DNA of 64,000 nucleotides from Candidatus Marinacidobacterium sp. (GTDB lineage: Bacteria; Acidobacteriota; Vicinamibacteria; Marinacidobacterales; Marinacidobacteraceae). How positions within the stretch are numbered: position 1 is the first letter of the stretch; every line of letters starts with the position of its first letter. A program made the position numbers and the translations under genes. The notes beneath the pieces were generated by a model. It was not told the origin of the DNA. It saw only the letters and a program-made list of their open reading frames with translations, and did no database searches. The stretch spans positions 3,232,001-3,296,000 of the forward strand of contig OZ242011.1 in assembly GCA_965204755.1 (NCBI GenBank), read 5' to 3'. Below are positions 1 to 64,000 of the stretch, in pieces.

Positions 1-544
1 CTCGGTTGAAGGAACTGCGCCAGCGCGCGCCGCCGTGGACGAGTTGGTTGCGGAGCGTGTAGAGGCGCCGGAAGAGGGTGATCAGGATTTTCTTGGTGTT
101 CCGTTCCCGCAACTCGAATTCCAGTTGGCGCTGGACATCCGTGAACCGCGTCTTCCAGCGGCCGGTTCCGCGCTGCCCGTGCGTGGAGTCCCAGAACGGC
201 CCGAACAGGTACTCGTTCGCGAAGAGGGAAGTGACCGTGTCTCGGAGGTCCCCCCACAGCGCTGCTTCGATGGCGCGGTCTTCGTCCAGGGACAGGAGTG
301 TTTCGAGGTACTTCTCGAACGCGCCGCGCTCCGATAGCCTCTCGTCGGAGAAGTCCCGGGAGATGTCCCTCGCATAGGCCGCGTTGAAGGCGATCCAGTA
401 GAGGAGGAAGGCCAAGTCGGGATCGTCCCCGTCCCGCGCCGTCTCGGCGCGTTCCATCCAGGTGTCGGCTCGGCGAAGGCGCACCGAGAAGGAGTGGAGC
501 GGCTCGCCCCTCTGGGCGGGCGCTTCGCCAGAGTCCGAGATCAT
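1..544 (-). CDS. HEPN-domain protein (putative RNase), partial, runs off the window start; paralog of 541..1212
   Basis: Not in the ORF track. Manual translation from ATG at 544 (ATGA overlap with the upstream stop) gives RLRRADTW...DLAFLLYWIAFNAAY...LFRRLYTLRNQLVHGGARWRSSFNR, with HEPN RxxxxH motif RNQLVH. Confidence 0.8.
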   Translation of the reverse strand, partial: MISDSGEAPAQRGEPLHSFSVRLRRADTWMERAETARDGDDPDLAFLLYWIAFNAAYARDISRDFSDERLSERGAFEKYLETLLSLDEDRAIEAALWGDLRDTVTSLFANEYLFGPFWDSTHGQRGTGRWKTRFTDVQRQLEFELRERNTKKILITLFRRLYTLRNQLVHGGARWRSSFNR

Positions 545-1212
545 TCCGGATTCATTTTCCCTTGAAGTCCGGGACGGTAATAGGGAATGCCCCACTGCTC
601 CCCTCGGTGCTGCCGAATGATTCGGACGAAGGCCGGAACCAAGTGCGCCATGATGGGGAGGCCGTGTTCGACGGAACTACGGTTGTACCGACTCTTCCAA
701 GTCGCGCCGCCGTGGACGATCTGGTTGCGTAGCGTGGCCAAGCGCTGGAACAACAGGGAAAGAAGCGTCTTGGCGCGGACCTTCGGGGCCCGGCGCGTGG
801 CGTTTCTCACGCTGGCGAGTTGATCGTCGAACCGCTGCCGCCAGTTCTCGTTCCCCTTTCTGCCGTTTACGAAGTACCAATATCTCTTGAAGAGATACTT
901 GTTGTTCAAGATCTCATGCATGGGACCGGTGAATTTCTCCAACGCGCGGACGATCTCACCGTTATCGTCGAAGCGCAGAACCTGCGCGAAGCACTTGTGA
1001 AATTCCCGGTGAGTATTCGGAGACTCCGAGTCGTCGGTCGCGAAGGCGGCGTTGAACGCAATCCAGTAGAGGACGAAGGCGACATCCCAGTGGCCCGAAG
1101 ACAGGTCGCCTGATTGGTGCGCCCTTCTGGCGCACGCGAGCCAAGATTCAGCGCGGCGGAGCCGCGTCTCGATGTTGCTGAAGTAGGACGAATCGTCGTA
1201 GTCGATCGTCAT
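541..1212 (-). CDS. HEPN-domain protein (putative RNase), 223 aa
   Basis: C-terminal part of ORF 541..2835 from MTIDYDD; AFVLYWIAFNAAF and LRNQIVHGGATW (RxxxxH); more AT-rich than flanking genes. Confidence 0.8.
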   Translation of the reverse strand: MTIDYDDSSYFSNIETRLRRAESWLACARRAHQSGDLSSGHWDVAFVLYWIAFNAAFATDDSESPNTHREFHKCFAQVLRFDDNGEIVRALEKFTGPMHEILNNKYLFKRYWYFVNGRKGNENWRQRFDDQLASVRNATRRAPKVRAKTLLSLLFQRLATLRNQIVHGGATWKSRYNRSSVEHGLPIMAHLVPAFVRIIRQHRGEQWGIPYYRPGLQGKMNPE

Positions 1213-1265
1213 GCGGACAGGCGAGGAGGTAGGGTGAGGCGAAGTCCGGCCGGAGGTGTCTGCCG

Positions 1266-3465: not shown

Positions 3466-4797
3466 TCACCGCGCGCCGGGCCAGCGGAGAACGAGCACTT
3501 CTTCACGCAGTCGGTCTTTGGTGGCCGTCGCCGCGCGAGTGCGAAAGAGATCCGTCCGGACGACTTCGTAGCCCAGGGATTCCGCGACGATGCCGAGCAG
3601 TTCGCCGGTGCGGATCAGGACTCGGAAATAGGAGGCTTGGTCGCCGACGACATAGGCGAGGACGGCGCCCGGTTTGAGGACGCGGCGGAGCGCGGCGAAG
3701 TGGCGGGCCATGCCCCCGAAGTAGAGCAGGGTGACGCGGTGGTCGTTGCGCTCGAAGCCGGAGGTCTTGCCGAGTTCCGAGCGGCGCTCCTCGATGAGCC
3801 GGGCGACCTGCTGCACCGGTTCGATGCGCTCGATGAGTCGGTGGTCGTCGTCGGTCTTGTAGACGCTGCGCGTGTTGGAGCGGACGAGGGTCTTCTTCAG
3901 GCCGCGCAGTTCCTCCATGTTCCGGGCGAAGCCGAGCAGGACGGTCTCGAGCCGGGTCGTCCGCGAATAGTCCTTCTCGTTCGGGTACGGCGGGGAAGTG
4001 ATGACGAAGTCCACCGACTCGGGTTCGAGGCGCGCGGGATCGCGGGCGTCGGCGCGATGGACTCGGCCGGCGCCGGAGGAGCGGAGGCGGGAGACGCGGC
4101 GGAGGTCCTCGGCGATTCCGCGAACCCGCGACAGCCAGGAGTCCACGACCGGGGCGTCCTCCTTGAGGTGGCGAACGCCGACTTCCGGGCCGAAATGCAG
4201 GTTGCTGGCATCGTGGACGATCGTCGTCGCGAGCGCCAGCCGCTCATGCCGCGCCGGTTGGCCGGCGCCCGCGGCCTCCTCGTCGAGGGCTTCGAGCAGC
4301 GCGAGCGTCCGGTCGAGAGGACGGGGGCTGATGGAGTCCTTGATGAGCAGGCGTTGCGCGGCGTCGGGAAGCGTCCGCAGGGCGCGCCCGTTGCGCCGCG
4401 CTTCGAGCCGCGCGGCCCGGACCGCGACGCGCTGCGCGCGCCGGACGAGATCCTCCGGCGGCGGAGTCCAGTCGGTCTTGACGCTGCTGGCGAAGTGGGC
4501 CATCGGCATCGCTTCGAGGCCGACGGCGGAAACGCCGAGTTTGCGGCTTTCGACGAGCGTCGTCCCCGTTCCGCAGAACGGGTCCAGGACGACGCTGTCC
4601 TCGTTCGCGCCGAACTCCGAGAGGTACCGGCGGACGAGATGGGCCGGGAACGAGAGGACGAACCGGTACCAGCGGTGGACGGCCGTGTCCTCTTCTCGCA
4701 GCCGGTTGATCGAGGCGCGGGCGTCGGTCGGACCGGGAGCCGGGAGCGTCGGGAAGAGCGTCGGGGTCGGCGCCCGCCGGGCGGCGGTCGAGGGCAC
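3466..4797 (-). CDS. Orphan DNA methyltransferase, probably N4-cytosine (SPPY), motif I before motif IV
   Basis: LDPFCGTGTT (SAM binding) and VITSPPYPNEKDY; start uncertain (GTG 4797); no adjacent endonuclease. Confidence 0.85.
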   Translation of the reverse strand: MPSTAARRAPTPTLFPTLPAPGPTDARASINRLREEDTAVHRWYRFVLSFPAHLVRRYLSEFGANEDSVVLDPFCGTGTTLVESRKLGVSAVGLEAMPMAHFASSVKTDWTPPPEDLVRRAQRVAVRAARLEARRNGRALRTLPDAAQRLLIKDSISPRPLDRTLALLEALDEEAAGAGQPARHERLALATTIVHDASNLHFGPEVGVRHLKEDAPVVDSWLSRVRGIAEDLRRVSRLRSSGAGRVHRADARDPARLEPESVDFVITSPPYPNEKDYSRTTRLETVLLGFARNMEELRGLKKTLVRSNTRSVYKTDDDHRLIERIEPVQQVARLIEERRSELGKTSGFERNDHRVTLLYFGGMARHFAALRRVLKPGAVLAYVVGDQASYFRVLIRTGELLGIVAESLGYEVVRTDLFRTRAATATKDRLREEVLVLRWPGAR

Positions 4798-4814: not shown

Positions 4815-7800
4815 TCAGCGGGCGGAGGCGCCCGGCGGGGGAGGGGTGTCCTGCGTCCAGAACGGTTCGTACGGCGGGCGTTCCACCGGCCAGATCTGCG
4901 CCATGGTGTTCGCGTCGAACAGTTCGCCGTTCCGCATCACGAACCGCACCGAGTTGGTGTTGCGGAGGTCTTCCAGCGGGTTCTCGTCGAGCACCTGGAG
5001 GTCGGCGAGTTTTCCGGGAGCGAGCGAGCCGAGATCCTCGGCGAGCCCGATGGCTTCGGCGCCGAAGAGGGTGGCGGCGATGAGGGTCTCGTGTTCGGAC
5101 AGCCCGCCGGAGCCCATCGCCCAGATCTCCCAGTGGGCGCCCAGCCCCTGGAGTTGGCCGTGGCTTCCGAGGGCGCATCGCCCGCCGGCGCGGATGACCC
5201 GCGTGCAGCCTTCGGCGATGCCGGCGTGGACATATTCCTCGGGGAGGAACCATTGGCCGCGCCGCCGCACCATGTTGTCCAGGATCGCGGCGGGGATGAA
5301 GCGCGCGAGTTTCTCGTCGCCGGCGACATCGGTGTTCTGGAAGTAGTAGTTCTCCGACCAGGGGCCGCCGTAGGCCACCAGGATCGTGGGCGTGTAGTAG
5401 GTCTTCGTCCGCGCCACATACTGCGCCACATCGTCGTAGATCGGGATGATCGGCAGGCTGTGTTCGTTGCCGGAGTACCCGTCGGCCATCTGCGTGAGGT
5501 CGAGTTTCAGGTCGAGCGCGCCTTCGGTCGTCGGCGTCAGCCGGTGCTTCGCCGAGGCGAGCGCCACCCATTGGCGGACGATCCGGTCGCCGACGACATA
5601 CTGCTTGACGGTCATCGAGTCGTAGGACTCGGCGTATCGCTTCAGGAAGAGGTCGGCGGCCTCTTCGTCGTAGACGCCCGACCGCGAGAAGATGCCCGGC
5701 CCGGTGGCGTAGATGCGCGGCGCGGTGATCCGTCCGATCTCCTGCAGGTCGCGGTAGGCGAAGACATCGGCGGTGGAAGTCTGCGGATCCCGAGTCGTGG
5801 TGACGCCGTAGGCGAGGTTCGCGAGGTGCTGGAAGACCTGCCGCTGGTGCACGCCGCGCGGCGCCCACATGTGCGCGTGGGCGTCCACATACCCCGGCAG
5901 CACGGTCTTGCCGGAGACATCGAAGACCCGGGCGCCTTCGGGCGCTTCGAGTACGGCGCCGACCGCGCGGATGCGGTTGTCTTCGACGAGCACATCGCCG
6001 CCGGCGATCACTTCCTCGCCCTCCATGGTGATGACCCGCGCGGCGTTTCGCAGCAGGATCGTCCCCTCGGGACGGGCGCGCGGCTCGGTTACCAGTGCGG
6101 TGAAGACCTCGCCGTCCGGCGCGGAACGGTGTTCGCCGTCTTCGCGCTCCTCTCCCTCGCCGCGCTCCGCGTCCTCGTCGCCGTCTTCATGCGCGGCTTC
6201 GTCCGCGTCCGCCGCGGCGGCGATGATGGAAGCGATCGGACGGCGGTGGATCCGGTTGCCGAGCGACCAGACCACGGCGTCCCCGGCGGCGCTCCACGAA
6301 AGGTGGCTTCCCCCCTCCGGCGCCGCCTCGCGCACCGGCGCCGGCGTTTCGCCGCCGCCGACCTCGATTTCCAGGGTCTTTCCGCCGGCGGCGGGCGTCT
6401 CGACCAGGTAGTGCCTGTTCTGCAACTCGAAGAACGCCCGGCTCCCGTCCGGGGAGAGGACGATCTGGCTGGCCGGCGGCGGGTTACGCCCGGCGCCGCG
6501 CCCGGTGACCTTCAGATGGGTTCGCCGGTCGGCGCCGTCGAGCCGCAGCGAGTAGAGCCCCTCGCGACCGGTCAGGTACACGCGGTCGGGTTCCGCCGCG
6601 AAATGCGGGAATCGGCCGCCCTCCGCCGGGCCGATCACCACCGGGTCGGCCGGCGCGCCGGACGCCGTAACGAGCAGGAGTTCGCTGAGTTCGGCCGGGC
6701 GCATACCGCCGATCTCTTCCTCCTCGCCGTAGAGGTCGGTGCGCCCGAACGCTGCCCGCAGGTAGGAGTAGAGATGCTCCTTGACCGGCGCCCGGCGGAC
6801 GACGATCCGGTCGCCGTCCGGCGTCCAGACCGGTTCGGCGTAGAACGCCGGCGTCTGCGTCCGGGCGGTTCCGCTGCCGCCGGCCGCGGGGACGGTCATC
6901 ACCTGGCCGCCGTCGCCCGACCAGGTCACATAGGCGACGGCGGCGCCGTCGGGTGACCAGGCGGGCATGAACTCGTCTTCGTCCGAGTCGGTGAGCCGCA
7001 CCGGCGCCCCGCCGGGCAACTCCATCCGGTAGAGGCGGCTGAACGCCGAGAACACCGCCGCGCTCCCGTCCGGCGAAATCCGCGGCCAGCGCACGATCCG
7101 CGCGGTTACCGCGTCGCCGTCGTCCACCCGGCGGGGGTAGTAGAGCCGGGGAGCGACTTCCGCCCGCACTTCCGCCCGGAACGGAATCTCGGTCATCGCT
7201 CCGGTGTCGAACTCGATGCGGAAGATCCCGCCGTTCACCGGCGCGATCAGCGCATCGCCCTCCGGCGTGAAGGCGTAACCGGGCATGGTGTCGCGGCTGG
7301 CGCGCGACTCCTGGTCGTCCCGGGTCACGCCGTTCACCAGCCATCTTTCCTCGCCGGACTCCAGGTCGCGTACGCGGAGCGCGGTGTTCGTCCGGTGCCG
7401 GGTGGCGTACGCCAAGTGGTTGCCGTCGGGGCTCAGCAGCGGGCGCATGGCGCTGCCCGGGGCGCTGGTGATCGTGGTCTCTTCGCCGGTCTTCCGGTCG
7501 AAACGCACGACCTGCCAGATGGGGAACTGCGCGTTGTAGTTGAAGGTTCCGCGCCGCTCCGAGAAATAGACGAACCGGCCGTCCGGGGAGGCGACCGCGC
7601 CCAGGCGATTCACCGGTTGCGGCCCGCCGCCGCCCGGAGTCGGCTCCGGCGGCGCGTCGCCGAGTCGGATGCCGGATCCCCCGTCCCGGTGGATCAGGAA
7701 GACCGAAGCGGTCCGCTCCGGCGGGCGCGAACGCGAGACCAGCAGGTAGTCCCCGTCCGCCGTCCAACTCGGGGAAACCATGAGTTGGGGGCGGTCCCGG

Positions 7801-8255: not shown

Positions 8256-8313
8256 GGCGTTCGATTCTAGTGGCCGGTCGGCGGGCCGGCTCCGGGCCGA
8301 GTCGCGGCCGGAT

Positions 8314-22114: not shown

Positions 22115-22816
22115 TCAGCGGGCGCCGGCGCCGAAAGTGTCCCGGAGGGCGGGGGCGTTGGCGATGAGTTCGCCGAGGTCCGTCATCGCGTTCTCCATCG
22201 CGATCTCCACGGCGGCGCCGAGGATCGTGGCGCCCTGGTCGCACCCGAAGCCGGAACTGGTCTGCACCGCGTTGCCCTCCACGGACTCCCGGAACAGCAG
22301 GCCGTCCTCGGTGAAGACGGAGACGGCGAGGACGAGGGCGGTGGAGGCCTCCAGCCCCATGAACCCGGTCGAGGCGACCGCGGCGTTGAAGACCTCGGCG
22401 CGGACGGCCACCACCATGTCGAAGCCCCGCTCCACCATGTCGTCCCGCCGCATCTGCACCGGCGTGAGATCCACCTGCCGCACGAGGGGCTGCAGCGTGC
22501 CCACGACCGAGCCGGCCAAGGCGTCGCGGGCGTCCACCGGGTAGTTGGAGTTCTCGCAGTGCCCGTCCTCTTCCGCGAGGATCTGGACATCGCGCCAGAG
22601 TTGCTCCCCGTCCACGAAGACCGCGGCGCGGGCCGGCAGCGGCGAGTCGAAGGCGTAGGCGGCGCGGGACGGCGCGGCGCGCACGACGACGCCGTAGGTG
22701 CAGGCCGACGCGGCGAGGGCCCCGGCCGCCAGGGCGGCAGCGGCGGCGAGGAGCGCCGGCCTCGGCTGGCGCTGCGAACGTTCCCGGTTGGCGCCGGGTT
22801 CTGGGCGTGGATTCAT
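22115..22816 (-). CDS. Hypothetical lipoprotein
   Basis: LAASAC lipobox after a hydrophobic stretch; AAGGAG RBS; protein-like composition. Confidence 0.7.
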   Translation of the reverse strand: MNPRPEPGANRERSQRQPRPALLAAAAALAAGALAASACTYGVVVRAAPSRAAYAFDSPLPARAAVFVDGEQLWRDVQILAEEDGHCENSNYPVDARDALAGSVVGTLQPLVRQVDLTPVQMRRDDMVERGFDMVVAVRAEVFNAAVASTGFMGLEASTALVLAVSVFTEDGLLFRESVEGNAVQTSSGFGCDQGATILGAAVEIAMENAMTDLGELIANAPALRDTFGAGAR

Positions 22817-28511: not shown

Positions 28512-29912
28512 GTGTCCGACGCCCCCGATCGCAAGGGGTTCTTGGCGCTCCTCCGCGAGTCGTTCCGCAGTTCCGAAGACCGCGACCTGACCTCCGGGCC
28601 GCTCTCGCCGGCGGTGCTGGTGCTCGCGGTGCCGATGGCGCTGGAGATGGTGGGCGAGTCCATCTTCGCGGTGGTGGACGCGCTCTTCATTTCGCGCCTC
28701 GGGTCGGCGGCGCTCGCGTCCGCCGGGCTGACCGAGACGGCGCTCGACCTGGTCTATGCGGTGGCGATCGGGTTCTCGTTCGCGGTGACCGCCGTGGTGT
28801 CCCGCCGGGTGGGCGAGGGGGACCGCCGGGCGGCGGCGCGGGCGGGAGTCCAGTCCATCGGCCTCGGGCTCGTGGTTTCGATCGTCCTCGGAGCGGTCGG
28901 CGTGTTCTTCGCCCCGCACGCGCTCCGGGTCATGGGCGCGGACGCCGACACGATCGCCGTGGGCACGACCCACGCCCGGATCATGTACGCCGGGATGGCG
29001 ACGATCATCCTGCTCTTCCTGAACAACGCCATCCTCCGGGGCGCGGGGGACGCGCAGGCGGCGATGCGTTCGCTGTGGCTCGCCAACGGGATCAACATCG
29101 TCCTCGATCCCTGCCTGATCTTCGGGCTGGGCCCGTTCCCGGAACTCGGATTGCCGGGAGCGGCGGTGGCGACCACCATCGGCCGCGGGATCGGCGTCCT
29201 CTACCAGTTCCGGGTGCTCGCGCGCGGCCCGCGGCTGAAGATCCTGCGGGAGGACCTGCGCGCCGAGTGGGACGTGCTGCGAAACCTCTGCCGGGTATCG
29301 ATCGGCGGCATCGGGCAGATGCTCGCGGACATGCTGCCCTGGATCCTGCTCATCCGCATCATCGCCGGATTCGGGACCGTCGCGGTCGCCGGCTGGGTGA
29401 TCGCCATCCGGGTGGCGCTCTTCGTGATCCTGCCGTCCTGGGGTCTCTCGAACGCCGCCGCCACGCTGGTGGGTCAAAACCTCGGCGCCGGGAAACCCCA
29501 CCGCGCGGAGCGGGCGGTCTGGATCACCGGCGGCTGGAACATGGCGTTCATGGGCGCGGTCACCGGCGTGTTCGTCGTCTTCGCGGCGCCGATCGCCGGC
29601 ATCTTCACCACGGACCCGGAGGTGCTCCGCACCGCGGCGACCGCCCTGCGGGTCGTGAGTTACGGCTATGTGTTCTACGCGATCGGGATGGTCACCCGGC
29701 AGGCGTTCAACGGCGCCGGCGACACCCGGACGCCCACGGTCATCGACCTCCTGTGTTTCTGGGCGTTCGAGATCCCGCTCGCCTGGCTCCTCTCCCGCAC
29801 GGCGCTCGGCGTGGACGGCGTGTTCTGGGCGGTCGCGGTTGCCTATTCGCTGTCCGCCGTGGTGAGCATGTTGTGGTTCCGCCGCGGGAAGTGGAAGACG
29901 ACGAAGGTCTGA
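28512..29912 (+). CDS. MATE family efflux transporter
   Basis: LAVPMALE, RGAGD, NIVLDPCLIFG, VGQNLGAG, FNGAGDTRTP. Confidence 0.92.
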   Translation: MSDAPDRKGFLALLRESFRSSEDRDLTSGPLSPAVLVLAVPMALEMVGESIFAVVDALFISRLGSAALASAGLTETALDLVYAVAIGFSFAVTAVVSRRVGEGDRRAAARAGVQSIGLGLVVSIVLGAVGVFFAPHALRVMGADADTIAVGTTHARIMYAGMATIILLFLNNAILRGAGDAQAAMRSLWLANGINIVLDPCLIFGLGPFPELGLPGAAVATTIGRGIGVLYQFRVLARGPRLKILREDLRAEWDVLRNLCRVSIGGIGQMLADMLPWILLIRIIAGFGTVAVAGWVIAIRVALFVILPSWGLSNAAATLVGQNLGAGKPHRAERAVWITGGWNMAFMGAVTGVFVVFAAPIAGIFTTDPEVLRTAATALRVVSYGYVFYAIGMVTRQAFNGAGDTRTPTVIDLLCFWAFEIPLAWLLSRTALGVDGVFWAVAVAYSLSAVVSMLWFRRGKWKTTKV

Positions 29913-55133: not shown

Positions 55134-56770
55134 GACTCCGAGAACAGGCCGCGGGCCGGCCGCGGCGCGGGGGGCGCGAGTCCCGCCGAAGCAGCCGCCG
55201 CGGCGGGAATCGGCAAACGCTCCAGTGACCGCGGCTCGACCTTGATCGCACCCGAGCCGTACGACTTTCCGACGCGGGCGAGGTTCGCGACGGCCTCCGG
55301 GTGCTGGAGGACACGGAAGAGGCCATCGACCGACGCGTTGTCGGTGTGGTGGGGATACACGCAAGAGAAGTTGCTGAGCGGAATGGCGCCGGCGCGGTTG
55401 CGGATGAATCGCGCGTTGCGCCGCCCCAGATAGGCGAACAGCAACGGCGGAGGATCGCGCTTCTCCATCTTGTACCAAGGCCGCCTCGTGGAAATGAGGC
55501 TCCGTTGCGGAATCCCTTCGGCTTCACCGGCAGCGAGGTACCGGCGGACGGCAGAAGGAAAGCGCCGCGCCTCCCGTCCGTCGGGCGTGAAGAGCAGGGT
55601 CGGCCGTCCTCGTTCGTCGAGCGCGTCCAGAGTCCCGGTCGTGATGTGGTCGTCAGGGGCGTCCCGTGTCCGGCCGATGGCCGGCGCGAGGAACGCTTCC
55701 GGGATTCCGAGATCGCGCGCCCGCTGTGTCGTCAGGAAGAAGAACGCATTGGCGCCGGTGGCGATCCCCCGCATGACTCGGGCGAAGTCACCGAGGCGCA
55801 TCTCGCCGTCCTTGCCGTCGGTCGGTGGTCGCGACAGACCGGTCTCGACCGCCTCGGACACCGCGCGCCGCCGAATGTCGAGAACTCGGGGGTCGGACTC
55901 CGTGAACCCCGACGAGGTCCACCGGCGCAGCGTGTCCGTCTCCGGTTGCCGGCATCTCGCCCACTGGATTTCCCCGTTCGGTGCGGCGTTCTCGATGAGG
56001 AAGACGATCGGGTTCGTGTCCACCTGAGGAAACGGTGTCGCCTCGGGCGCGAAGGTGATGACGGCATCCAAGCGGAACTGTGCGGCGATCCAGCGCCAGA
56101 GGATCGGGGCGAAGACGCCTTCGCAGGTGTCGGCCGGCATGATGAACGCGAGGCGCCCCCCCTCGCGCAGGCGCTCCAGGGCGCGGAGGAGGAAGAAGAT
56201 GTGGAGCCCCGCGCGGCCGTCGAGCGGCCGGCCGATCGTTCCGCCGGCGATGGCGCGGAGTACCGATTTGACCGATCGGTCCAAGCGGTGATGGCGGATG
56301 TACGGGGGATTGGCGACGATCGCGCCGAACGGCCCTTTTGGGGGCGACAACACGAAGTCGCGGATTTCGACTCCGCGCAGATCGTCCGGCCGAAGGCCGC
56401 TTGTCCGGGCCTCCCGCAACGCGTCCGGATCGATTTCGGCGCCGGAGAGGGCGAGACGGCGCCCGGTTCGCCGTTCCTGCCGTTTTGCCGCGCGAAAGAA
56501 CGCTCCCGCGCCGACCGCCGGATCGAAGAGTTCGCCCCCGTTCTCCCCCGCAGCGTAAGCGACCATGGCGTCGGCGACCCAGTCGGGAGTCCAGAACTGC
56601 CCTTTCTGGCGCAGTCGCTCCCGCTCCGGGCCGGCGGAGGGAATGCCGGCGGTCGCCGTCAGACGGGAGAAGAATCGCGGCGGTGGCGGCGGCGATCCAT
56701 GCGAGACGGACACGGCTGTCGACCGATTCGAAACGATACAGGAGGCGGAGTCGAGTCGGTGATCTCGCAT
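55130..56770 (-). CDS. Orphan N6-adenine DNA methyltransferase (gamma class, type II-like)
   Basis: KGQFWTP, FDPAVGAGAF, ANPPYIRH, RGIATGANAFF; start uncertain (ATG 56770 or GTG 56713). Confidence 0.87.
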   Translation of the reverse strand: MRDHRLDSASCIVSNRSTAVSVSHGSPPPPPRFFSRLTATAGIPSAGPERERLRQKGQFWTPDWVADAMVAYAAGENGGELFDPAVGAGAFFRAAKRQERRTGRRLALSGAEIDPDALREARTSGLRPDDLRGVEIRDFVLSPPKGPFGAIVANPPYIRHHRLDRSVKSVLRAIAGGTIGRPLDGRAGLHIFFLLRALERLREGGRLAFIMPADTCEGVFAPILWRWIAAQFRLDAVITFAPEATPFPQVDTNPIVFLIENAAPNGEIQWARCRQPETDTLRRWTSSGFTESDPRVLDIRRRAVSEAVETGLSRPPTDGKDGEMRLGDFARVMRGIATGANAFFFLTTQRARDLGIPEAFLAPAIGRTRDAPDDHITTGTLDALDERGRPTLLFTPDGREARRFPSAVRRYLAAGEAEGIPQRSLISTRRPWYKMEKRDPPPLLFAYLGRRNARFIRNRAGAIPLSNFSCVYPHHTDNASVDGLFRVLQHPEAVANLARVGKSYGSGAIKVEPRSLERLPIPAAAAASAGLAPPAPRPARGLFSES

Positions 56771-56817: not shown

Positions 56818-59595
56818 TTACTCCGCCGGGTCGGGGAGGGCGTTCCCGTGTTCGTGGATGGGGAGGCGTTCGTTGTTGTCTTCGGGGTGGGCGCGGCGGT
56901 AGTCGCCGGTCAGGAAGTCGGCGGACTCGTCGGCCTTGAAGCGGAGGTACAACTCGCGGTGGCGGGCGGCGCGCTCCCGGTCGCCGAGGCCCTGGGAGGA
57001 GAGCATCAGGTTGTAGTGGGCTTCGAGGTCCTCCGGATCGATGCGGAGGGTGCGCTCGAAGATCTCCACGGCGCGGGCGAAGTCGCGGCGGAGGAAGTGG
57101 AGGCGGCCCAACTGGTTGTTGGCGACCCGGTCGCGCGGGAAGCGGGCGAGCACCGCCCTCAGGTGCTCCTCCGCCTCGTCGTATCGCCCGAGCGCCTTCA
57201 GCGCCATCGCGGCGAAGAACCGCGCCCGGGGCAGGGACGGGTCGAGGGCGAAGGCGTCTTCGAGAGCCGCGAGCGCGCCCTCGGGGTCACCCTCCTGGAT
57301 GCGGACGCGCCCGAGGTTCACGAAGGCGTCGGCGTACTCCGGAGCGCGGCGGGCGACTTCGGCGAAGGCGGCCTCGGCGGCGCGGAGGTCTCCGGCGAGC
57401 AGCAGGCCGATCCCGTAGTCGTTGAACCGCAGCGCCTCGGCGAGCCCGCCGGGGCCGCCGGCGGGAGGCGAATCGGGGGGCGAAGCCGACTCCGCTTCGC
57501 CGTCCTCCGTCGGCAGCGTCACGCGGGCCGAGGCCATCTCGACGGGCGGCAGGACCGGAGCGGAGACGGTTTCGTCCAGCCGCCAGTCCCGGTCGTCGTA
57601 GCCCGGCGCCACCGTGTCCGCCGCCGGGGCGTCGGCGCGGCCCCGGAAGACCCACTGGGTGTGCCACCACCGGAACTTCCGGTAGTGGAGCCGGGCGGTG
57701 AGCGTCACCGGGCCGCGGACGCCTTCGGGTACCCGCACCCGGTAACGCACGGTGTGGGCGGCGCCGGGGGGGATCTGCGAGACATAGAGGGCGGTGCGGG
57801 CGGCCCAGGCGTTCCGCTTGTCGATCGGGTTGCCGCGGGCGTCCAGCATCAGCGAGCGGAAGAAGTGCGCGGAGGGTTCGACCGGCCCGTCTCCCGGGTC
57901 ATCGGGCGGCGGCCCGGAGGCGCCCGCGGCGGGCTCGGTGAAGCCGCTCCGGAAGAACGGCCGGCCGTCCCGGTCGTCGGCGCGGAACTCCAGCCAGACA
58001 TCGTGGGCGTCCACCGTGCCGCTCGGGAAGAAGTGGCCCACATTCCGGGTGCGGACGACCACATCCACCCGCACGGTCTCGCCGGGGCGCAGCGCGGCGC
58101 CGGCCTCGTCGAGCGGGGCGGTCAGCGTCCCGGGCGCTCCCGCCGGTCGGTAGCGCGCCGGGGCGGCGGAAGCCTCCTCCCCCACCGCGAAAGTCGAGGC
58201 CAGCGCCAGCGGGTCCGCGCTCGGCTCGACGGCCGCTTCGATCGGGCCCTCGTCGTTCCTGGTGAGCGCGAAGATGTCCACCGTCACCTGGCCGGCGCGG
58301 AGGAAGTCCCGAACCGCTTCGAGTTGCCGGTCGAGGCCGAAGTGGGTCGGCAGCGCGGTGTTCGCGGCGGCGAACCGGTGGGAGCGGACGAGTCCGTCCG
58401 GCGCCGCCGGGTCCTCGCCGGCGACGGCGGGCATGTGGCAGTCGGCGCAGGTGCGGGGCTCTTCCGGGTAGTAGAAGGAGCGCGCGCCCTCGCCGGAGAC
58501 GCCGCTCGCCTGCCAGTTGTCGTAACTGTTGAAGCCGCGCAGCCACCGGTAGGAGTTCACCGGCTCGTCGAGATGCACCTTGTGGCAGGTGGAGCAGAAC
58601 GCGGAACTGTCGCCGGTGTGGAGCGGCTTCAGAAAAGCGCGGCGGTGCGGTTCCGGGTCGAGGTGGAGGACGAGGTCGTGGAGCGTCCGGAGCAACGGGT
58701 CGGCGGAGGCCGCGAGGTCGTGCATCTCCGGGTACTCGATGACGAATCCGGCGTTCCCGGAGGTGTCCTTCACGCGGGTGACCGCGTGGCAGGAGACGCA
58801 GGCCAGACCGGCGCTCGCCGCCGGGAGGTCGACGATTTCGGCGAGCGGGCGATCCATCAACCCGGAGAAGAGGACGGCGTGGTCGTGGCAGCCGGCGCAC
58901 CACTTGGACGGCGTCACGCCGACCACGCTCTGCATGTATTCGATGGATCGCCGGTACCAAGGGTTGTTGAACGAGGCGAACCGGTGGGCGGACTCGGCCC
59001 ACTGTTCGGTGATGTCGGCGTGGCAGCGGCCGCAGGTCTCGCTCTCCAGGAAGAAGTCCTCGGGGATCAGTCCGCCGTGGGCGGTCTCGGCGGCGCTCGG
59101 GAAGAACGGGCCGTCCGCTCCGCCCATCGCTTCCCCGGACATCGCCGCCGGCGGGAGACCGGCGTTCAGCACCGGCCCCGGGGAGGGCAGGTAGTCCCGG
59201 AGGAGGCCGCCGACGGGGATCGAGACCGCGACCAGCAGCGGGGCGAGCAGGATGCGCCGACGGGCGAGGAGCGCGGCGAGTCCGGCGGCGGCGGCGAGGT
59301 GCGCCCACAGGAGCGGGCGGGTCGTCGGAGTGGCGCCGAGGACGAGAAGACTCAGGCCGGTGGCGAGGAGAACGCCGCCGGACAGGAAGAAGAGCGGGCG
59401 GAGCGGGTCGGCGCGGAGCGCCGGGCCCACCGTCCGCCGGGCCCAGATCGCGAGTTTCAGCGCGCCGATCCCCAGCAGCGGGTGCAGCAGGATCTGCGCG
59501 GCGTGGAAGAGGCTCGCCTCTTCCGCCGCCAGCAGGTAGCCGGAGTTCAGCGCGGCGAGCCCCCCGGCGACGAACAGGGCTCGGCTGCGAGTCAT
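56818..59595 (-). CDS. Membrane-anchored multiheme cytochrome c554-like protein (5 CxxCH) with TPR repeats
   Basis: N-terminal TM helices; CGRCH, CAGCH, CVSCH, CSTCH, CADCH; C-terminal TPRs. Confidence 0.87.
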   Translation of the reverse strand: MTRSRALFVAGGLAALNSGYLLAAEEASLFHAAQILLHPLLGIGALKLAIWARRTVGPALRADPLRPLFFLSGGVLLATGLSLLVLGATPTTRPLLWAHLAAAAGLAALLARRRILLAPLLVAVSIPVGGLLRDYLPSPGPVLNAGLPPAAMSGEAMGGADGPFFPSAAETAHGGLIPEDFFLESETCGRCHADITEQWAESAHRFASFNNPWYRRSIEYMQSVVGVTPSKWCAGCHDHAVLFSGLMDRPLAEIVDLPAASAGLACVSCHAVTRVKDTSGNAGFVIEYPEMHDLAASADPLLRTLHDLVLHLDPEPHRRAFLKPLHTGDSSAFCSTCHKVHLDEPVNSYRWLRGFNSYDNWQASGVSGEGARSFYYPEEPRTCADCHMPAVAGEDPAAPDGLVRSHRFAAANTALPTHFGLDRQLEAVRDFLRAGQVTVDIFALTRNDEGPIEAAVEPSADPLALASTFAVGEEASAAPARYRPAGAPGTLTAPLDEAGAALRPGETVRVDVVVRTRNVGHFFPSGTVDAHDVWLEFRADDRDGRPFFRSGFTEPAAGASGPPPDDPGDGPVEPSAHFFRSLMLDARGNPIDKRNAWAARTALYVSQIPPGAAHTVRYRVRVPEGVRGPVTLTARLHYRKFRWWHTQWVFRGRADAPAADTVAPGYDDRDWRLDETVSAPVLPPVEMASARVTLPTEDGEAESASPPDSPPAGGPGGLAEALRFNDYGIGLLLAGDLRAAEAAFAEVARRAPEYADAFVNLGRVRIQEGDPEGALAALEDAFALDPSLPRARFFAAMALKALGRYDEAEEHLRAVLARFPRDRVANNQLGRLHFLRRDFARAVEIFERTLRIDPEDLEAHYNLMLSSQGLGDRERAARHRELYLRFKADESADFLTGDYRRAHPEDNNERLPIHEHGNALPDPAE

Positions 59596-60413
59596 CGGTC
59601 GGCTGCGGGGCCTCTTCCGCGGTCGTCCGGGCCGCCGCCGCGCCGGGCGGGGCCGGCCTCGCCGCGCGGATCGCCCTCGCCGAGGCGAGGCGGCTGGCCG
59701 TCGGCGTCGGCGTCCGAGGCGAAGTCGAGGTTCGCGCCGGCGGTTTCGACGCCCGCTTCGCGGAGCGCTCGTCGGGCGGTCCGGGTGATGAGCACCGTGG
59801 CCGCCACGAACGCGGCGAGTCCGGCGAGGCGGAGCGCCAGTTCCGCGGTCTCGGTTTCGCCGGACACCGCGGCGCTCGCGCTCGCGCCGATCGTGATGTA
59901 GAGCAGCGTTCCCGGCAGGATCCCGACCGCTGACGCGAGGAGGTAGCCGGGGAAGGGCGCGCCGGTGATGCCGTAGGCGTAGTTCAGCACCGTGAACGGG
60001 AAGACCGGGGTGAGCCGCGTGAGGAACACGATCTTCCAGCCCTCCTTGGCCACGGCGCGGTCCACCGCGGCGAACGAGGGCTTCGTGGCGAGCCACTTCG
60101 AGACCGCGTCCCGCGCGAAGCGGCGGGCGACGAGGAACGAGAGCGCGAGACCGGCGGTGGCGCCGATCCAGACGGAGAGCAATCCGGCGGCGACCCCGAA
60201 CGCCCCGCCCGCGAGCAGGGTGAGCGCGGAACCGGGGACGGCGAAGACGGTGGCGACGGCGTAGATGCCGGCGAAGACCGCGATGCCGAGCGGGCCGAGG
60301 CTCCGCGTCCACTCCGCCGCGGCGGTGACGCCGGCGCCGATCTCGTCGCCGAAGAACACCAGCGCGGCGACGACCGGCGCGAGGATCGCGCCGATGCGGA
60401 GCGCGCGGCTCAT
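59592..60413 (-). CDS. TVP38/TMEM64 (DedA/VTT) membrane protein
   Basis: PGSALTLLAGGAFG, GATAG, RLTPVFPFTVLNY, GILPGTLLY. Confidence 0.92.
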   Translation of the reverse strand: MSRALRIGAILAPVVAALVFFGDEIGAGVTAAAEWTRSLGPLGIAVFAGIYAVATVFAVPGSALTLLAGGAFGVAAGLLSVWIGATAGLALSFLVARRFARDAVSKWLATKPSFAAVDRAVAKEGWKIVFLTRLTPVFPFTVLNYAYGITGAPFPGYLLASAVGILPGTLLYITIGASASAAVSGETETAELALRLAGLAAFVAATVLITRTARRALREAGVETAGANLDFASDADADGQPPRLGEGDPRGEAGPARRGGGPDDRGRGPAADR

Positions 60414-62006: not shown

Positions 62007-62741
62007 ATGGAGCCGCGCGGCGCAACGGGTCGGCCCGGAGCGGCGCCGGGCCGCCGCAGCCGCCGCCTGATCCTCGGGCTGGACGAAGCGGGGCGGGGGC
62101 CGGCGCTCGGCCCGCTGGTGGTGGCGGGCGTGGCGCTCGATGTGCCGGCGGCCGCCGCCCTCCGGCGGCGGGGCGTGAAGGACTCGAAGGACTTCGGCCC
62201 CGGCGAGGAGGGGCGCGAGCGGCGGCGCGAACTGGCGGCGGAAGTGCGGAAGCGGGCGGCCGGCGTCTTCGTGCGGGTTCTCTCCGCCGCCGAAGTGGAC
62301 CGCTATGTCGAAGTGCGCGGCCTCAACGCGCTGGAGCGCCGCGCCGCCGACGAGATCGTCACCGAAGCCGGCCCGGCGCGCCGCATCGTGGCCGACGGCG
62401 CGAGGCTCTTCGGCCCCCTGGCCGGGCGGTATCCGCACCTCGAGGCGCTCGACCGGGGCGAGTCGCAGCACGCGGCGGTGGCCGCCGCCAGCGTGGTCGC
62501 CAAGGATCGGCGCGACGAGTTGTTCGCCGAAATCGCCGAGCGGTACCGCGCCGACTTCGGCGAAGTGCGCGGCGGCGGCTATGTGAACCGCGACACCGAG
62601 GCCTTCCTCCGCCGCTTCCACGCCGCCCGCGGCCGCCTCCCGGAGGAGACCCGCCTCAGTTGGCGCTGGTCGGTCATCCGCGAGTTGAACGGCCAACCCC
62701 GATTGTTCGGCGGCGCCGGCGCCCCGGGCGGTGGCGCCTGA
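62007..62741 (+). CDS. rnhB: Ribonuclease HII
   Basis: GLDEAGRGPALGPLVV, VKDSK, VAAASVVAK, GGGY. Confidence 0.9.
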   Translation: MEPRGATGRPGAAPGRRSRRLILGLDEAGRGPALGPLVVAGVALDVPAAAALRRRGVKDSKDFGPGEEGRERRRELAAEVRKRAAGVFVRVLSAAEVDRYVEVRGLNALERRAADEIVTEAGPARRIVADGARLFGPLAGRYPHLEALDRGESQHAAVAAASVVAKDRRDELFAEIAERYRADFGEVRGGGYVNRDTEAFLRRFHAARGRLPEETRLSWRWSVIRELNGQPRLFGGAGAPGGGA

Positions 62742-62856
62742 CGGTTGCGGCAGCGGCCTCCCGAGGTTAGTGTTCCGGGTTGTGCGGGGGGCCCTGAGGG
62801 CGGCCTGCCCTCCCGCCATGCGACGCACGGCCGCCGTTTTGAGCGAGGGCGGAGTC

Positions 62857-63774
62857 GTGACCGCGCTGGAGCGAGCCTACTACCGACAGGAGTTCCGGAT
62901 CGCCCTCCTTGAAAAGGAGGGTCAGGAGTTCCAAGACTGGTTCTGTGAACTCGCTCGTCGGGCCATTGGGCCCGACTTCGAGCCCATCGGCCATGAAGGC
63001 GCACAGGGAGACCAGGCAGCTGACGGGCGTAGGCGGAGCGACGGCACCATCTTTCAGTGCTACGCTCCGCACACCGTCCGCGCAGATCGTGTCCGGCGAA
63101 AGATACGGGCCGACTTCGCGAGTGCCTTGCGACACTGGCCGAGGTTCCTGAAACACTGGGTCTTCGTGCACAACATCAGGCGTGGCTTGGGCCCCACTGC
63201 GAACAAGGAGTTGGATGCACTTGGAAGAGAGTATCCTGCGGTGAAGATCGCGACTTGGTCGAAGCCGGAGTTGACGGAGCTCTTCGATCAGTTGGAACTC
63301 GCCGACTGCGAGTGGTTGTTCGGTCCTGCTCCATCGGCGGAAGACTTGGAGGGCGTCACGCCGGCGCATGTCGCGGAAGTGATTGGCCACTTGGAGCAGA
63401 CCAAGCCCGAGCCGGGCAGGGAGCCGCTCGCGCCGCCGTCGGTGGACAAGATCGAGAAGAACGATCTCTCGCCCGATGTACTCGACCTGCTCCGCGCGGG
63501 TAAGCGCAAGGATTACTTGACGGAGCGGTACTTCGAGAAGGAACCGGGTCCGGAGGCCGGAGAGCGAGTCGCGGAAGCGTTTCGGCAGCGTTACGCATCA
63601 CTCAAGGAGAGTGCCGAGTCACCTGACGACATCTTCGCCGGACTCCAGAGATTCGCCGGACACGGGGGCAGCCCCAAGCACCAGGTGGCGGTACTGGCCG
63701 TTCTGTCCTACTTGTTCGACCGCTGTGACATCTTCGAGGATCCGCGCGGCGTGGTTCCGGGTCGTCCGGTGTGA
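62857..63774 (+). CDS. ABC-three-component (Lamassu LmuA-like) effector: PD-(D/E)XK-like nuclease + C-terminal domain
   Basis: GQEFQDWF...GDQAADG...IFQCYAP; KIEKNDLS; terminal YLFDRCDIFE; GTG start after GGAG. Confidence 0.78.
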   Translation: MTALERAYYRQEFRIALLEKEGQEFQDWFCELARRAIGPDFEPIGHEGAQGDQAADGRRRSDGTIFQCYAPHTVRADRVRRKIRADFASALRHWPRFLKHWVFVHNIRRGLGPTANKELDALGREYPAVKIATWSKPELTELFDQLELADCEWLFGPAPSAEDLEGVTPAHVAEVIGHLEQTKPEPGREPLAPPSVDKIEKNDLSPDVLDLLRAGKRKDYLTERYFEKEPGPEAGERVAEAFRQRYASLKESAESPDDIFAGLQRFAGHGGSPKHQVAVLAVLSYLFDRCDIFEDPRGVVPGRPV

Positions 63775-63998
63775 TCCTTCCGACGAAGCACATGCGCCCG
63801 TACCGCAGCCTCTTGGGGCTCGGCGCGACGATTCTGGACACGATCACGCGGCCGATGACCGTTTCCGCGCTCTGGGATCGGTTGCGAAGGGCGTCACATC
63901 CCGGACTGAGTTACGGATGGTTCATCCTCGCGCTGGATCTGCTCTACATGATCGGCGCCATCGACTTTCGTCGCGGTCTCCTCGTTCGCGCGAAGTAG
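63771..63998 (+). CDS. ABC-three-component middle component (MC6 / LmuC-like)
   Basis: MILPTKH...SLLGLGATIL...TVSALW...FILALDLLYMIG; GTGA overlap; a GTG at 63998-64000 may start the SMC-like ATPase. Confidence 0.8.
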   Translation: MILPTKHMRPYRSLLGLGATILDTITRPMTVSALWDRLRRASHPGLSYGWFILALDLLYMIGAIDFRRGLLVRAK

Positions 63999-64000
63999 TG

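What the first reader, a model, noticed from the sequence alone, without database searches (positions are those of the whole stretch)
1..64000. The tetramer AGCT is essentially erased from the window; the only two sites found lie in the Lamassu effector
Seen: reading AGC trinucleotides by eye across the window, I found AGCT only at 63018-63021 and 63278-63281. At about 70% GC, roughly 175 are expected (0.15 x 0.35 x 0.35 x 0.15 x 64000). Codon pairs are visibly bent to avoid it (Glu-Leu as GAA CTC or GAG TTG, Gln-Leu as CAA CTC), while GATC, TCGA, GTAC, CATG and TGCA are common. Inference: long-term selection or mutation linked to an AGCT-specific restriction or modification enzyme. Even the AT-richer defence genes have no AGCT, so the site may act as a filter on which foreign DNA is kept.
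Basis: partly seen in the sequence, partly recalled or inferred. Interest (0 to 1): 0.8.

Follow-up and report, generated by a model that had tools for sequence, protein, structure and literature searches.

The report
Two four-letter DNA words purged genome-wide
This soil-type bacterium has almost completely removed the short DNA words AGCT and ACGT from its whole chromosome, most likely because restriction enzymes that cut those words lived in its lineage for a long time.

Summary
AGCT occurs twice in the window (63018, 63278) against 141±10 in shuffles. Genome-wide (3.98 Mb, Acidobacteriota) AGCT is 332 against 7,446 expected and ACGT 265 against 7,147. In core genes the depletion is 100-200-fold.

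It is lineage-specific. Of 56 other genomes sampled, AGCT is depleted only in the congener G001. ACGT is depleted in G001, in two non-sister genera (G005, G007) and in one distant genome (G307).

At 445 AGCT and 675 ACGT positions of normal relatives, this genome keeps none; changes are mostly one-step synonymous. Survivors sit in the rRNA operon, a genome-specific 14-nt repeat, and low-GC DNA.

Best reading: long-term selection against sites of 4-bp restriction-modification systems. m5C deamination is a possible contributor.

No enzyme could be assigned. Several methyltransferases co-distribute with the depletion:
- two m5C-methylase/paraMORC-like/DUF6339 operons (PADLOC PDC-M33)
- a beta-class methylase
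- a D12-class methylase

Homologues elsewhere mostly lack depletion. The "filter on foreign DNA" idea is not supported as stated.

The parts
1..64000 (.). Whole window: near-total absence of AGCT and ACGT (2 each), CTAG 1, TTAA 0. It is a sample of a genome-wide property.
63018..63021 (.). Residual AGCT site 1
63278..63281 (.). Residual AGCT site 2
62731..63774 (+). Gene holding both AGCT sites. It has lower GC3 (0.76) and matches PDC-M68A / CTD10 of ABC-3C, so it is the Lamassu-like first gene. Its partner (PDC-M68B, weak LmuB match) starts just beyond the window end.
22778..22781 (.). Residual ACGT site 1
29272..29275 (.). Residual ACGT site 2
8267..8270 (.). Only CTAG site in the window. 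CTAG scarcity is shared by the whole family.

Best explanation
AGCT and ACGT were purged from this chromosome by long-lasting selection against the recognition sites of 4-bp-specific restriction-modification systems. These systems were carried, now or formerly, by this genus. For ACGT they were also carried by a few other lineages that share the same mobile methylase genes.

Proposed mechanism (inferred, not shown). Each unmethylated or transiently unprotected site carries a small risk of self-cleavage. In large populations that cost removes sites through whatever substitutions are tolerated. In coding DNA those are almost only one-step synonymous changes, for example GAG CTG to GAA CTG or GAG TTG, AGC T to AGT T, and GAC GTC to GAT GTC.

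Where sites persist. They remain where change is forbidden (rRNA) or where the DNA is young (low-GC islands and a repeat family unique to this genome).

Status of each step. Shown: the purge, its lineage distribution, the substitution pattern and the survivors. Inferred: that restriction is the agent, and which genes encode it.
For: 1. Size of the purge. Genome-wide AGCT is 332 against 7,446 (Markov) and ACGT 265 against 7,147. In 1,573 core-like genes the codon-context O/E for frames 0/1/2 is 0.012/0.005/0.064 for AGCT and 0.007/0.005/0.093 for ACGT. TCGA and GATC are about 1.

2. Lineage specificity. In 20-kb samples, 21 of 24 family genomes and 16 of 16 sampled genomes of the other two families of the order are normal. 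Larger samples give:
- G001: AGCT 31/298, ACGT 18/298
- G005: ACGT 9/280, AGCT 298/280
- G007: ACGT 41/223
- G307: ACGT 1/368 in 105 kb

3. Independent origins. The ACGT-depleted lineages are not sisters in a 2-protein tree.

4. Orthologous positions. 0 of 445 AGCT and 0 of 675 ACGT sites of normal relatives are kept here, against 1,077 of 2,102 TCGA. There is no excess of amino-acid change at the lost sites (0.65 and 0.49 identical, against a background of 0.56).

5. Where deamination products would be non-synonymous (xxA GCT), sites are still depleted 16-fold. They are replaced by GCC/GCG-type synonymous changes; 0 of 26 became AGTT or AACT.

6. Variant copies of the AGCT-bearing repeat are AGGT (22), AGCC (6) and AGGC (3), never AGTT or AACT.

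7. Gradient with DNA age. O/E falls from 0.17 in GC<0.65 bins to 0.01-0.02 in GC>0.72 bins.

8. Methylases that co-distribute with the depletion:
- The m5C methylase of the PDC-M33 operon at G000:1259155-1263828 occurs in 2 of 55 genomes of the order, G000 and G001.
- The beta-class methylase G000:1033879-1035120 occurs in 4 of 55 (G000, G001, G007, and a fragment in G005), and in G307.
- The D12-class methylase G000:1255485-1256492 occurs in G000, G001, G005 and G007, plus G009 at 44%.

9. Literature. Orthodox Type II systems cause site avoidance that grows with residence time and can outlast the system (PMC4687349, abstract read).
Against: No restriction endonuclease for AGCT or ACGT was identified.
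- The ORF I first took for a partner of the beta-class methylase is the antisense shadow of a beta-lactamase-family gene.
- The PDC-M33 operons contain no recognisable nuclease. The A protein is a GHKL ATPase. The B protein is a beta-sandwich fold with no match at E<=0.001.
- PMC4687349 reports avoidance only for orthodox Type II systems.

Predictive tests mostly failed.
- AGCT operon methylase: only 1 of 4 other genomes with a homologue is AGCT-depleted. G312 and G403 (about 60% identity) and G373 (40%) are not.
- Second operon's methylase: 2 of 8 holders are ACGT-depleted.
- Metagenome contigs: none of 80 carrying the operon's methylase (38-60% identity) shows AGCT depletion.
- Beta-class methylase: G127 has a 66% homologue next to a CfrBI-family endonuclease, yet ACGT is over-represented there.

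Other points.
- The AGCT operon's DUF6339 gene carries an in-frame TGA in this genome.
- Several unrelated methylases share the same distribution, so co-occurrence is confounded by a shared mobile gene pool.
- Depletion of 100-200-fold is far beyond what I recall for usual restriction avoidance.
Confidence: 0.55

Rival explanations
1. Mutational decay. Resident m5C methyltransferases methylate AGCT and ACGT, and 5-methylcytosine deamination (C to T on either strand) erodes the sites faster than they are re-created. Selection plays little part.
For: - The genome has 6 C5-methylase genes, against 1 in G008 and 1 in G005.
- Two of them track the depleted lineages.
- The commonest replacements are the deamination products: AGTT/AACT in 264 of 445 and ATGT in 283 of 675.
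- Against normal relatives, the gain in AACT+AGTT (about 17.5 per 10 kb) nearly equals the AGCT loss (20.2 per 10 kb).
- In rRNA, 3 of the 4 ACGT losses I could polarise by majority state are C to T.
- Residual sites are relatively enriched in the frame where deamination would change the amino acid.
- The Vsr gene beside the second operon's methylase is reduced to a C-terminal remnant in this genome.
Against: - In frames 0 and 1 the deamination products are also the only one-step synonymous escapes, so they do not discriminate.
- Frame-2 sites are still 11-16-fold depleted, and through non-deamination changes.
- ACG T is replaced mainly by ACC T (37 of 81), never ACA T.
- Repeat variants are AGGT/AGCC, not AGTT/AACT.
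- G005 has an apparently intact Vsr next to its only C5 methylase, yet shows the strongest ACGT loss outside G000 and G307.
- A 100-200-fold depletion against a strong GC-ward bias exceeds CpG decay in vertebrates (about 5-fold, recalled).
- The best-correlated ACGT methylase is a beta-class N4/N6 enzyme, not m5C.
- 23S rRNA keeps as many AGCT as relatives do (17 against 14-20).
Confidence: 0.2
2. Trace of systems now gone, or pressure from outside the cell. The purge records restriction systems since lost, or enzymes met by the DNA during exchange within a community that shares these methylases. No current gene in this genome is responsible.
For: - The AGCT operon has a nonsense codon in its DUF6339 gene.
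- The beta-class methylase has no adjacent endonuclease here and is only a fragment in strongly depleted G005.
- A repeat family unique to this genome has spread 69-70 AGCT copies, which suggests that present pressure is weak.
- G007 is only partly depleted.
- PMC4687349 describes avoidance that outlasts the system (abstract).
Against: - Depletion in G000 is deeper than in its congener G001 (0.03-0.045 against 0.06-0.10). That argues for continued pressure in G000.
- Absence of an endonuclease gene is not shown. Only genes next to methylases were inspected.
Confidence: 0.17
3. Artefact. Systematic base-calling or polishing errors at methylated motifs in a long-read, single-contig assembly make the motifs seem absent.
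For: - The genome is a single contig of 89% estimated completeness. That is compatible with a long-read metagenome assembly.
- The nonsense codon in the DUF6339 gene could be an assembly error.
Against: - Losses respect the reading frame. There is no excess of amino-acid change at lost sites.
- 24 AGCT and 6 ACGT are retained in the rRNA operon at positions shared with relatives.
- The same erasure appears in four other independent assemblies, including fragmented ones (G007 with 410 contigs, G307 with 440 contigs).
Confidence: 0.02

Closest known systems
Restriction-site (palindrome) avoidance in prokaryotic genomes caused by orthodox Type II R-M systems (Rusinov et al. 2015, PMC4687349, abstract read; Gelfand & Koonin 1997 and Rocha et al. 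2001, recalled)
   Same: - Short palindromes are under-represented.
- The effect is lineage-specific.
- It is stronger in older DNA.
- It may persist after the system is lost.
- The genome is rich in methylases.
   Different: - The degree is far larger: 25-fold genome-wide and 100-200-fold in core genes.
- Two tetramers are affected at once.
- No orthodox endonuclease/methylase pair could be tied to either site.
AGCT absence in Pandoravirus genomes (Poirot et al. 2019, bioRxiv 10.1101/712018; abstract and discussion passages read)
   Same: - The same tetramer is affected.
- Erasure is near-total in GC-rich megabase genomes.
- It is clade-specific within a family.
- Sites are removed from coding and non-coding DNA alike.
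   Different: - That case is a virus of amoebae with no methylase or endonuclease candidates. Sites in related strains were unprotected, so the authors rejected R-M.
- Here the genome is methylase-rich, ACGT is erased too, and lineage-specific methylases co-distribute with the loss.
paraMORC (GHKL ATPase) restriction-modification-like operons predicted by Iyer, Abhiman & Aravind 2008 (PMC2292703; passages read); PADLOC candidate PDC-M33
   Same: - The two candidate operons encode a C5 cytosine methylase next to a GHKL ATPase whose model matches Hsp90, topoisomerase VI-B and MORC3 structures.
- An invariant E413...H417 pair fits the ExxxH motif that the paper gives for paraMORC2.
- Vsr is adjacent in G005.
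   Different: - No experimental function is known.
- No nuclease domain was recognised.
- About 50 homologous operons elsewhere show no site depletion in their contigs.
- Their link to the purge is correlative only.
CpG depletion by 5-methylcytosine deamination (vertebrates; CpG-methylating Mollicutes; recalled)
   Same: - The target is a methylated short motif.
- C-to-T products are the commonest replacements.
   Different: - Depletion here is much deeper.
- It extends to frames where deamination is non-synonymous.
- Vsr repair genes are present.

Membership tests
Restriction-site avoidance by a resident Type II R-M system | The site is significantly under-represented against a Markov or codon-aware null | tested here: met
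Restriction-site avoidance by a resident Type II R-M system | Under-representation tracks presence of the system across related genomes | tested here: inconclusive
   Within the order the match is perfect for several methylases. Outside it the match mostly fails, with one success, G307.
Restriction-site avoidance by a resident Type II R-M system | A methyltransferase of that specificity is encoded | not testable with these tools
   No REBASE and no methylome were available. Methylases with 38-66% identical homologues elsewhere may differ in specificity.
Restriction-site avoidance by a resident Type II R-M system | An independently acting cognate endonuclease is encoded | tested here: not met
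   None was found next to the candidate methylases. The one clear Type II endonuclease (G000:2394090-2395562) is absent from G001, and its gene holds 4 ACGT. The rest of the genome was not screened for endonucleases.
paraMORC2-type GHKL ATPase R-M-like operon (Iyer et al. 2008) | GHKL ATPase fold with a following S5/transducer-like domain | tested here: met
   The AlphaFold model of the G001 A protein (pLDDT 80.8) matches Hsp90/TRAP1, topoisomerase VI-B and MORC3 at E 4e-9 to 2e-4.
paraMORC2-type GHKL ATPase R-M-like operon (Iyer et al. 2008) | Conserved ExxxH motif after the ATPase module | tested here: met
   E413 and H417 are invariant in 38 sequences. The motif is as described in PMC2292703.
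paraMORC2-type GHKL ATPase R-M-like operon (Iyer et al. 2008) | Operon linkage with a cytosine methylase and Vsr | tested here: met
PADLOC PDC-M33 | HMM matches to M33A, M33B and M33C in one operon | tested here: met
   AGCT-candidate operon: A 1.5e-98, B 7e-44, C 3.6e-46 (G001 copies). Second operon: A only 6e-6 and no match for B or C, so its membership rests on synteny and BLAST.
Lamassu (for the gene holding the window's two AGCT sites) | LmuB SMC-like ATPase next to an effector-bearing LmuA | tested here: inconclusive
   The neighbour matches LmuB only weakly (E 1.4e-9) but matches PDC-M68B at 2.7e-158. The site-bearing gene has CTD10 of ABC-3C and matches PDC-M68A.

The most novel reading that the evidence does not exclude
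The m5C-methylase / paraMORC2-like GHKL ATPase / beta-sandwich protein / DUF6339 operons (PADLOC PDC-M33) are a working, uncharacterised class of restriction-like system that here reads 4-bp palindromes. One operon would read AGCT and the other ACGT. Their self-toxicity would be high enough to strip thousands of sites from the host chromosome, which would make a bacterial counterpart, with genes in hand, of the unexplained AGCT erasure in pandoraviruses.
Probability: 0.15. Interest if true: 0.85.

Novelty: new member of a known kind. Interest (0 to 1): 0.6.

Why it matters
If the purge reflects restriction pressure, this is one of the most extreme cases of site avoidance in a cellular genome. 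It has closely related genomes that lack it, which gives a natural experiment on how fast and by what substitutions a genome can rid itself of thousands of sites.

It affects codon usage by forcing rare codons at thousands of positions. It also distorts k-mer-based binning and horizontal-transfer detection.

It gives a bacterial comparison for the unexplained AGCT absence in pandoraviruses.

Finally, it flags testable candidate genes, among them a widespread but uncharacterised methylase-paraMORC-DUF6339 operon.

Tried and rejected
I sampled 20-kb stretches instead.

2. Assigning AGCT to the PDC-M33 operon methylase by prediction failed or was inconclusive.
- G312, G403 and G373 carry homologues (40-61%) and are not AGCT-depleted.
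- None of 80 metagenome loci is AGCT-depleted.

3. Assigning ACGT to the second operon's methylase fared no better. G435, G403, G203, G400, G088 and G054 carry homologues (38-60%) without depletion.

4. CAGCTG is absent from G312 (0 against 15), which looked like support for an AGCT-core specificity. I dropped it because CAGCTG is depleted across normal family members as well (19 against 113).

5. The '457-aa conserved neighbour' of the beta-class methylase was rejected as a gene. Its GC1/GC3 pattern is that of an antisense frame. The sense frame encodes a beta-lactamase/PBP-family protein (E 9e-25 to PDB 2qmi). The other plus-strand ORF, 6142-7263, is also a shadow frame.

6. The CfrBI-family endonucleases next to the homologous methylases in G127 and G307 suggested CCWWGG (recalled specificity). 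CCWWGG is not depleted in either genome.

7. The Type II pair at G000:2393-2396 kb was rejected as a shared cause, because the endonuclease was not found in G001.

8. The fold of the operon's B protein gave no match at E<=0.001.

9. Protein-atlas look-ups of B and of the shadow ORF were uninformative.

10. A profile search of A against PDB sequences gave nothing meaningful.

11. Frame-specific depletion does not separate mutation from selection, because the flux that creates new sites differs by frame. I report the numbers only.

12. No paper mentions DUF6339 or PDC-M33 in the searched library. Supplements were not consulted.

14. The trees rest on 4 and 2 proteins. G005 was dropped from the first for low coverage, and 17 of 41 genomes were dropped from the second. 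No support values were printed.

15. Unpublished genome G033 was never fetched. It enters only as one of the 55 order genomes counted as non-matching, and among the 41.
Full report
1. THE OBSERVATION

The window has exactly two AGCT, at 63018 and 63278. Dinucleotide-preserving shuffles give 141±10. The Markov-2 expectation is 108 and the zero-order expectation 172.

- ACGT is just as rare: 2 sites, at 22778 and 29272, against a shuffle mean of 193.
- CTAG occurs once, against a shuffle mean of 59.
- TTAA does not occur.
- GATC, TCGA, GTAC, CATG and TGCA are at ordinary levels.

The window is G000:C1:3232001-3296000 of a single-contig genome of 3,975,858 bp at 71.7% GC. The closest named relatives of one of its proteins are Acidobacteriota metagenome-assembled genomes (55-59% identity).

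Genome-wide counts:

| Tetramer | Observed | Markov-2 expected | O/E |
|---|---|---|---|
| AGCT | 332 | 7,446 | 0.045 |
| ACGT | 265 | 7,147 | 0.037 |
| CTAG | 385 | 2,942 | 0.13 |

These are the three lowest of all 256 tetramers. The finding is therefore a genome property, not a window property.

2. A CODON-AWARE NULL

I used my own crude GC3-based gene calls: 1,963 ORFs covering 69% of the genome. From these I took the 1,573 genes with GC3 of at least 0.85, and compared codon-pair counts with the product of the marginals. Frames 0, 1 and 2 mean that the tetramer starts at codon position 1, 2 or 3.

| Tetramer | Frame 0 (obs/exp) | Frame 1 (obs/exp) | Frame 2 (obs/exp) |
|---|---|---|---|
| AGCT | 15/1,203 | 24/5,023 | 9/140 |
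| ACGT | 11/1,656 | 27/5,273 | 10/107 |

TCGA and GATC lie near or above expectation. In core genes the depletion is thus about 100-200-fold in the two common frames and 11-16-fold in the rare one.

3. WHO ELSE HAS IT

I sampled 20 kb around an orthologous gene in 24 genomes of the same family and 16 of the two other families of the order. Larger samples followed for the interesting genomes.

AGCT is depleted only in the congener G001: 31 observed against 298 zero-order expected in 120 kb.

ACGT is depleted in four genomes:
- G001: 18/298
- G005: 9/280, with AGCT normal at 298/280
- G007, partly: 41/223, with AGCT 240/223
- G307, a distant 38%-GC member of the phylum: 1 site in 105 kb, against 103 Markov and 368 zero-order expected

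The other 21 family genomes range from 0.53 to 1.10 for AGCT and from 0.57 to 1.45 for ACGT. The 16 order genomes and the other phylum genomes sampled are normal.

CTAG is scarce throughout the family. CAGCTG is depleted in the normal family members too, at 19 against 113 pooled.

In a two-protein FastTree, G000 and G001 are sisters at the base of the family, while G005 and G007 branch beside the normal genus g2. The tree kept 24 of 41 genomes, and no support values were printed. ACGT loss therefore seems to have arisen more than once, but this rests on a thin tree.

4. WHAT REPLACED THE SITES

I made codon alignments of G000 genes against the relatives' loci: 209 tblastn segments with at least 55% identity. 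They give 445 AGCT and 675 ACGT positions in the 21 normal relatives. These are not independent, because the relatives are kin.

G000 keeps none of them. By contrast it keeps 1,077 of 2,102 TCGA and 539 of 1,553 GGCT.

The replacements:

| Site context in relatives | Main state in G000 |
|---|---|
| AGC T | AGT T in 82 of 141 |
| xAG CTx | xAA CTx in 110 and xAG TTx in 72 of 278 |
| xAC GTx | xAT GTx in 283 of 571 |
| ACG T | ACC T in 37 of 81 |
| xxA GCT | GCC/GCG-type changes; 0 of 26 became AGTT or AACT |

Both amino acids are unchanged at 65% of lost AGCT sites and 49% of lost ACGT sites. The background is 56%. The losses are therefore not bought with protein change and are not sequencing noise.

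Against pooled normal relatives, the gain in AACT+AGTT (about 17.5 per 10 kb) nearly equals the AGCT loss of 20.2 per 10 kb.

5. WHERE SITES SURVIVE

Depletion is graded with local GC. O/E is 0.17 in 5-kb bins below 65% GC and falls to 0.01-0.02 above 72%.

Of the 332 AGCT:
- 24 lie in the region of the only rRNA operon (2266240-2271960). Its 23S gene has as many AGCT as relatives do (17 against 14-20). It has fewer ACGT: 2-3 in G000, G001 and G005 against 6-11 in three normal genomes.
- 69-70 lie in nine arrays of a 20-21-bp repeat whose core is AATTGTGTAT followed by AGCT. There are 100 copies, with variants AGGT (22), AGCC (6) and AGGC (3).
- This motif was not found in G001, G005, G007, G008 or G004, so it is a young expansion specific to this genome.

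The window's two AGCT lie in a lower-GC3 defence gene (PDC-M68A/CTD10).

6. SELECTION OR MUTATION

The commonest replacements are what 5-methylcytosine deamination would produce. In frames 0 and 1, however, they are also the only one-step synonymous escapes, so they decide nothing.

Points favouring selection on the site itself:
- Frame-2 sites are still depleted more than 10-fold, and through non-deamination changes.
- ACG T goes to ACC T, not ACA T.
- Repeat variants are never AGTT or AACT.
- G005 has a Vsr mismatch endonuclease next to its only C5 methylase and is still purged.
- The depth of the purge runs against a strong GC-ward bias.

Points favouring a mutational contribution:
- The genome has six C5 methylases.
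- Of the 4 rRNA ACGT losses that I could polarise by the majority state, 3 are C-to-T.
- Survivors are relatively enriched in frame 2. Differences in the flux that creates new sites could also explain that enrichment.

I put selection at roughly 0.55, with a further 0.17 for the 'trace of lost or external systems' variant. I put pure deamination at 0.2.

7. WHICH GENES

The genome is rich in methylases, by Pfam family:
- 6 PF00145 matches
- 26 PF01555 matches
- 6 PF02086 matches
- 14 PF02384 matches

One C5 methylase is a Dcm/EcoRII pair. Four candidates co-distribute with the purge.

(a) G000:1262791-1263804. This m5C methylase is 73% identical to a G001 gene. It was found in 2 of 55 genomes of the order. 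It heads an operon M-A-B-C that matches PADLOC candidate PDC-M33.

(b) G000:1519707-1521068. This m5C methylase is 73-80% identical to the only C5 methylase of G005 and 43% identical to a G001 gene. It closes an operon of the same architecture. In G005 a Vsr follows the methylase. In G000 only a C-terminal Vsr remnant does.

(c) G000:1033879-1035120. This beta-class N4/N6 methylase was found in 4 of 55 order genomes: G000, G001 at 80%, G007 at 59%, and a fragment in G005. In the phylum sample of 401 it occurs in G127 (66%) and G307 (44%).

(d) G000:1255485-1256492. This D12-class methylase lies beside operon (a). It has homologues in G001 (65%), G005 (59%), G007 (58%) and G009 (44%). It was not found in G307, G127, G435 or G312.

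The A protein of the operons is a GHKL ATPase. The AlphaFold model of the G001 copy has pLDDT 80.8. It matches Hsp90/TRAP1, topoisomerase VI-B and MORC3 structures. E413 and H417 are invariant, which fits the ExxxH motif that Iyer et al. give for paraMORC2 in predicted restriction-modification operons with cytosine methylases and Vsr (PMC2292703, passages read).

B folds as beta-sandwich domains plus helices and has no significant structural match. C is DUF6339. In G000 the C gene has an in-frame TGA where G001 has arginine. No nuclease was recognised in any of the three.

8. TESTS OF THESE CANDIDATES OUTSIDE THE FAMILY

Candidate (a). G312 and G403 hold the whole operon with about 60% identical methylases. 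G403's copy is degenerate. Neither is AGCT-depleted. G373 (40%) is not depleted either.

In metagenome contigs, 80 loci carry a 38-60% identical methylase, and 72 of them also show an A-like gene. My ORF filter recovered 51 A, 46 B and 39 C genes. None of the 80 loci shows AGCT depletion.

Candidate (b). 2 of 8 other holders are ACGT-depleted.

Candidate (c). 4 of 5 other holders are depleted, including the distant G307. G127 is the exception, with ACGT 312 against 154 expected. None of the 51 sampled genomes without a match to (c) is depleted.

In G127 and G307 the methylase sits next to CfrBI-family endonucleases, but CCWWGG is not depleted there. In G000 and G001 the methylase has no endonuclease beside it. 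The ORF I first took for one is the antisense shadow of a beta-lactamase-family gene.

Because four unrelated methylases share nearly the same distribution, co-occurrence is confounded by a shared mobile gene pool, and none can be assigned. Homologues at 40-66% identity may differ in specificity or be recent arrivals. Rusinov et al. report that recently acquired systems show no avoidance and that avoidance can outlast a lost system (PMC4687349, abstract).

9. COMPARISON AND VERDICT

The phenomenon belongs to restriction-site avoidance, which is a known kind, but it is an extreme member: two tetramers are near-erased in a free-living bacterium.

Near-total AGCT absence has been described for pandoraviruses and left unexplained (10.1101/712018, abstract and discussion passages). 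I found no report of such erasure in Acidobacteriota in one literature search. That is not an exhaustive claim.

Its 'filter' idea is not supported.

The agent remains unidentified. The most novel reading still open is that the methylase-paraMORC-DUF6339 operons are the 4-bp restriction-like systems responsible.

Noticed in passing
outside the window: G000:C1 nine loci near 357.9, 756.0, 1208.0, 1660.0, 2045.5, 2895.4, 2970.8, 3119.1 and 3494.2 kb: Paired arrays, about 250-300 bp apart, of a 20-21-bp repeat with the core AATTGTGTAT followed by AGCT. There are 100 copies in all. In the one locus I read (756 kb), each array is preceded by a similar GC-rich leader. The motif was not found in five relatives, congener included. 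It may be a protein-binding or small-RNA repeat family, or a young mobile element. It holds a fifth of all AGCT in the genome.
   Followed up: partly
outside the window: family-wide, loci L082-L119: CAGCTG (the PvuII-type site) is depleted in the normal members of the family (19 observed against 113 expected, pooled). CTAG is scarce in all of them. GTCGAC is depleted in G000 (0.20), G005, G007 and G001.
   Followed up: partly
outside the window: G307 (L313, L327-L346): This 38%-GC genome of the same phylum is poor in many palindromes at once: ACGT 0.01, CTAG 0.012, CATG 0.20, GTAC 0.22, GGCC 0.23, and CCWGG-type CCAGG 0.07. It looks like a very restriction-rich organism.
   Followed up: partly
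window 50004-51539 (-): An AAA_14 + DUF4143 ATPase gene matches PADLOC candidate PDC-S01 (E 1e-79). This is another defence candidate in the window, and it has no AGCT or ACGT.
   Followed up: no
window 56818-60312 (-): A large protein with multihaem cytochrome c-type domains (Cytochrome_C554/C7, MtrC-like) and C-terminal TPR repeats. Next to it is an FG-GAP/ASPIC-UnbV protein (53409-55478).
   Followed up: no
window 4507-4665 (-) and 56129-56611 (-): Weak partial matches to DNA-methylase families: PF01555 at E 3e-9 over positions 161-212 of the profile, and PF02384 at E 6e-11. I did not examine them. The second lies just downstream of, not inside, the cytochrome/TPR ORF (56818-60312) and may be spurious.
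   Followed up: no
outside the window: G000:C1:1259203-1259733: The DUF6339 gene of the AGCT-candidate operon has an in-frame TGA where the congener has Arg. This is either a pseudogene or an assembly error.
   Followed up: yes
window 46356-46383: A run of 28 C in a row, inside ORF 44743-47553, which has no family match.
   Followed up: no
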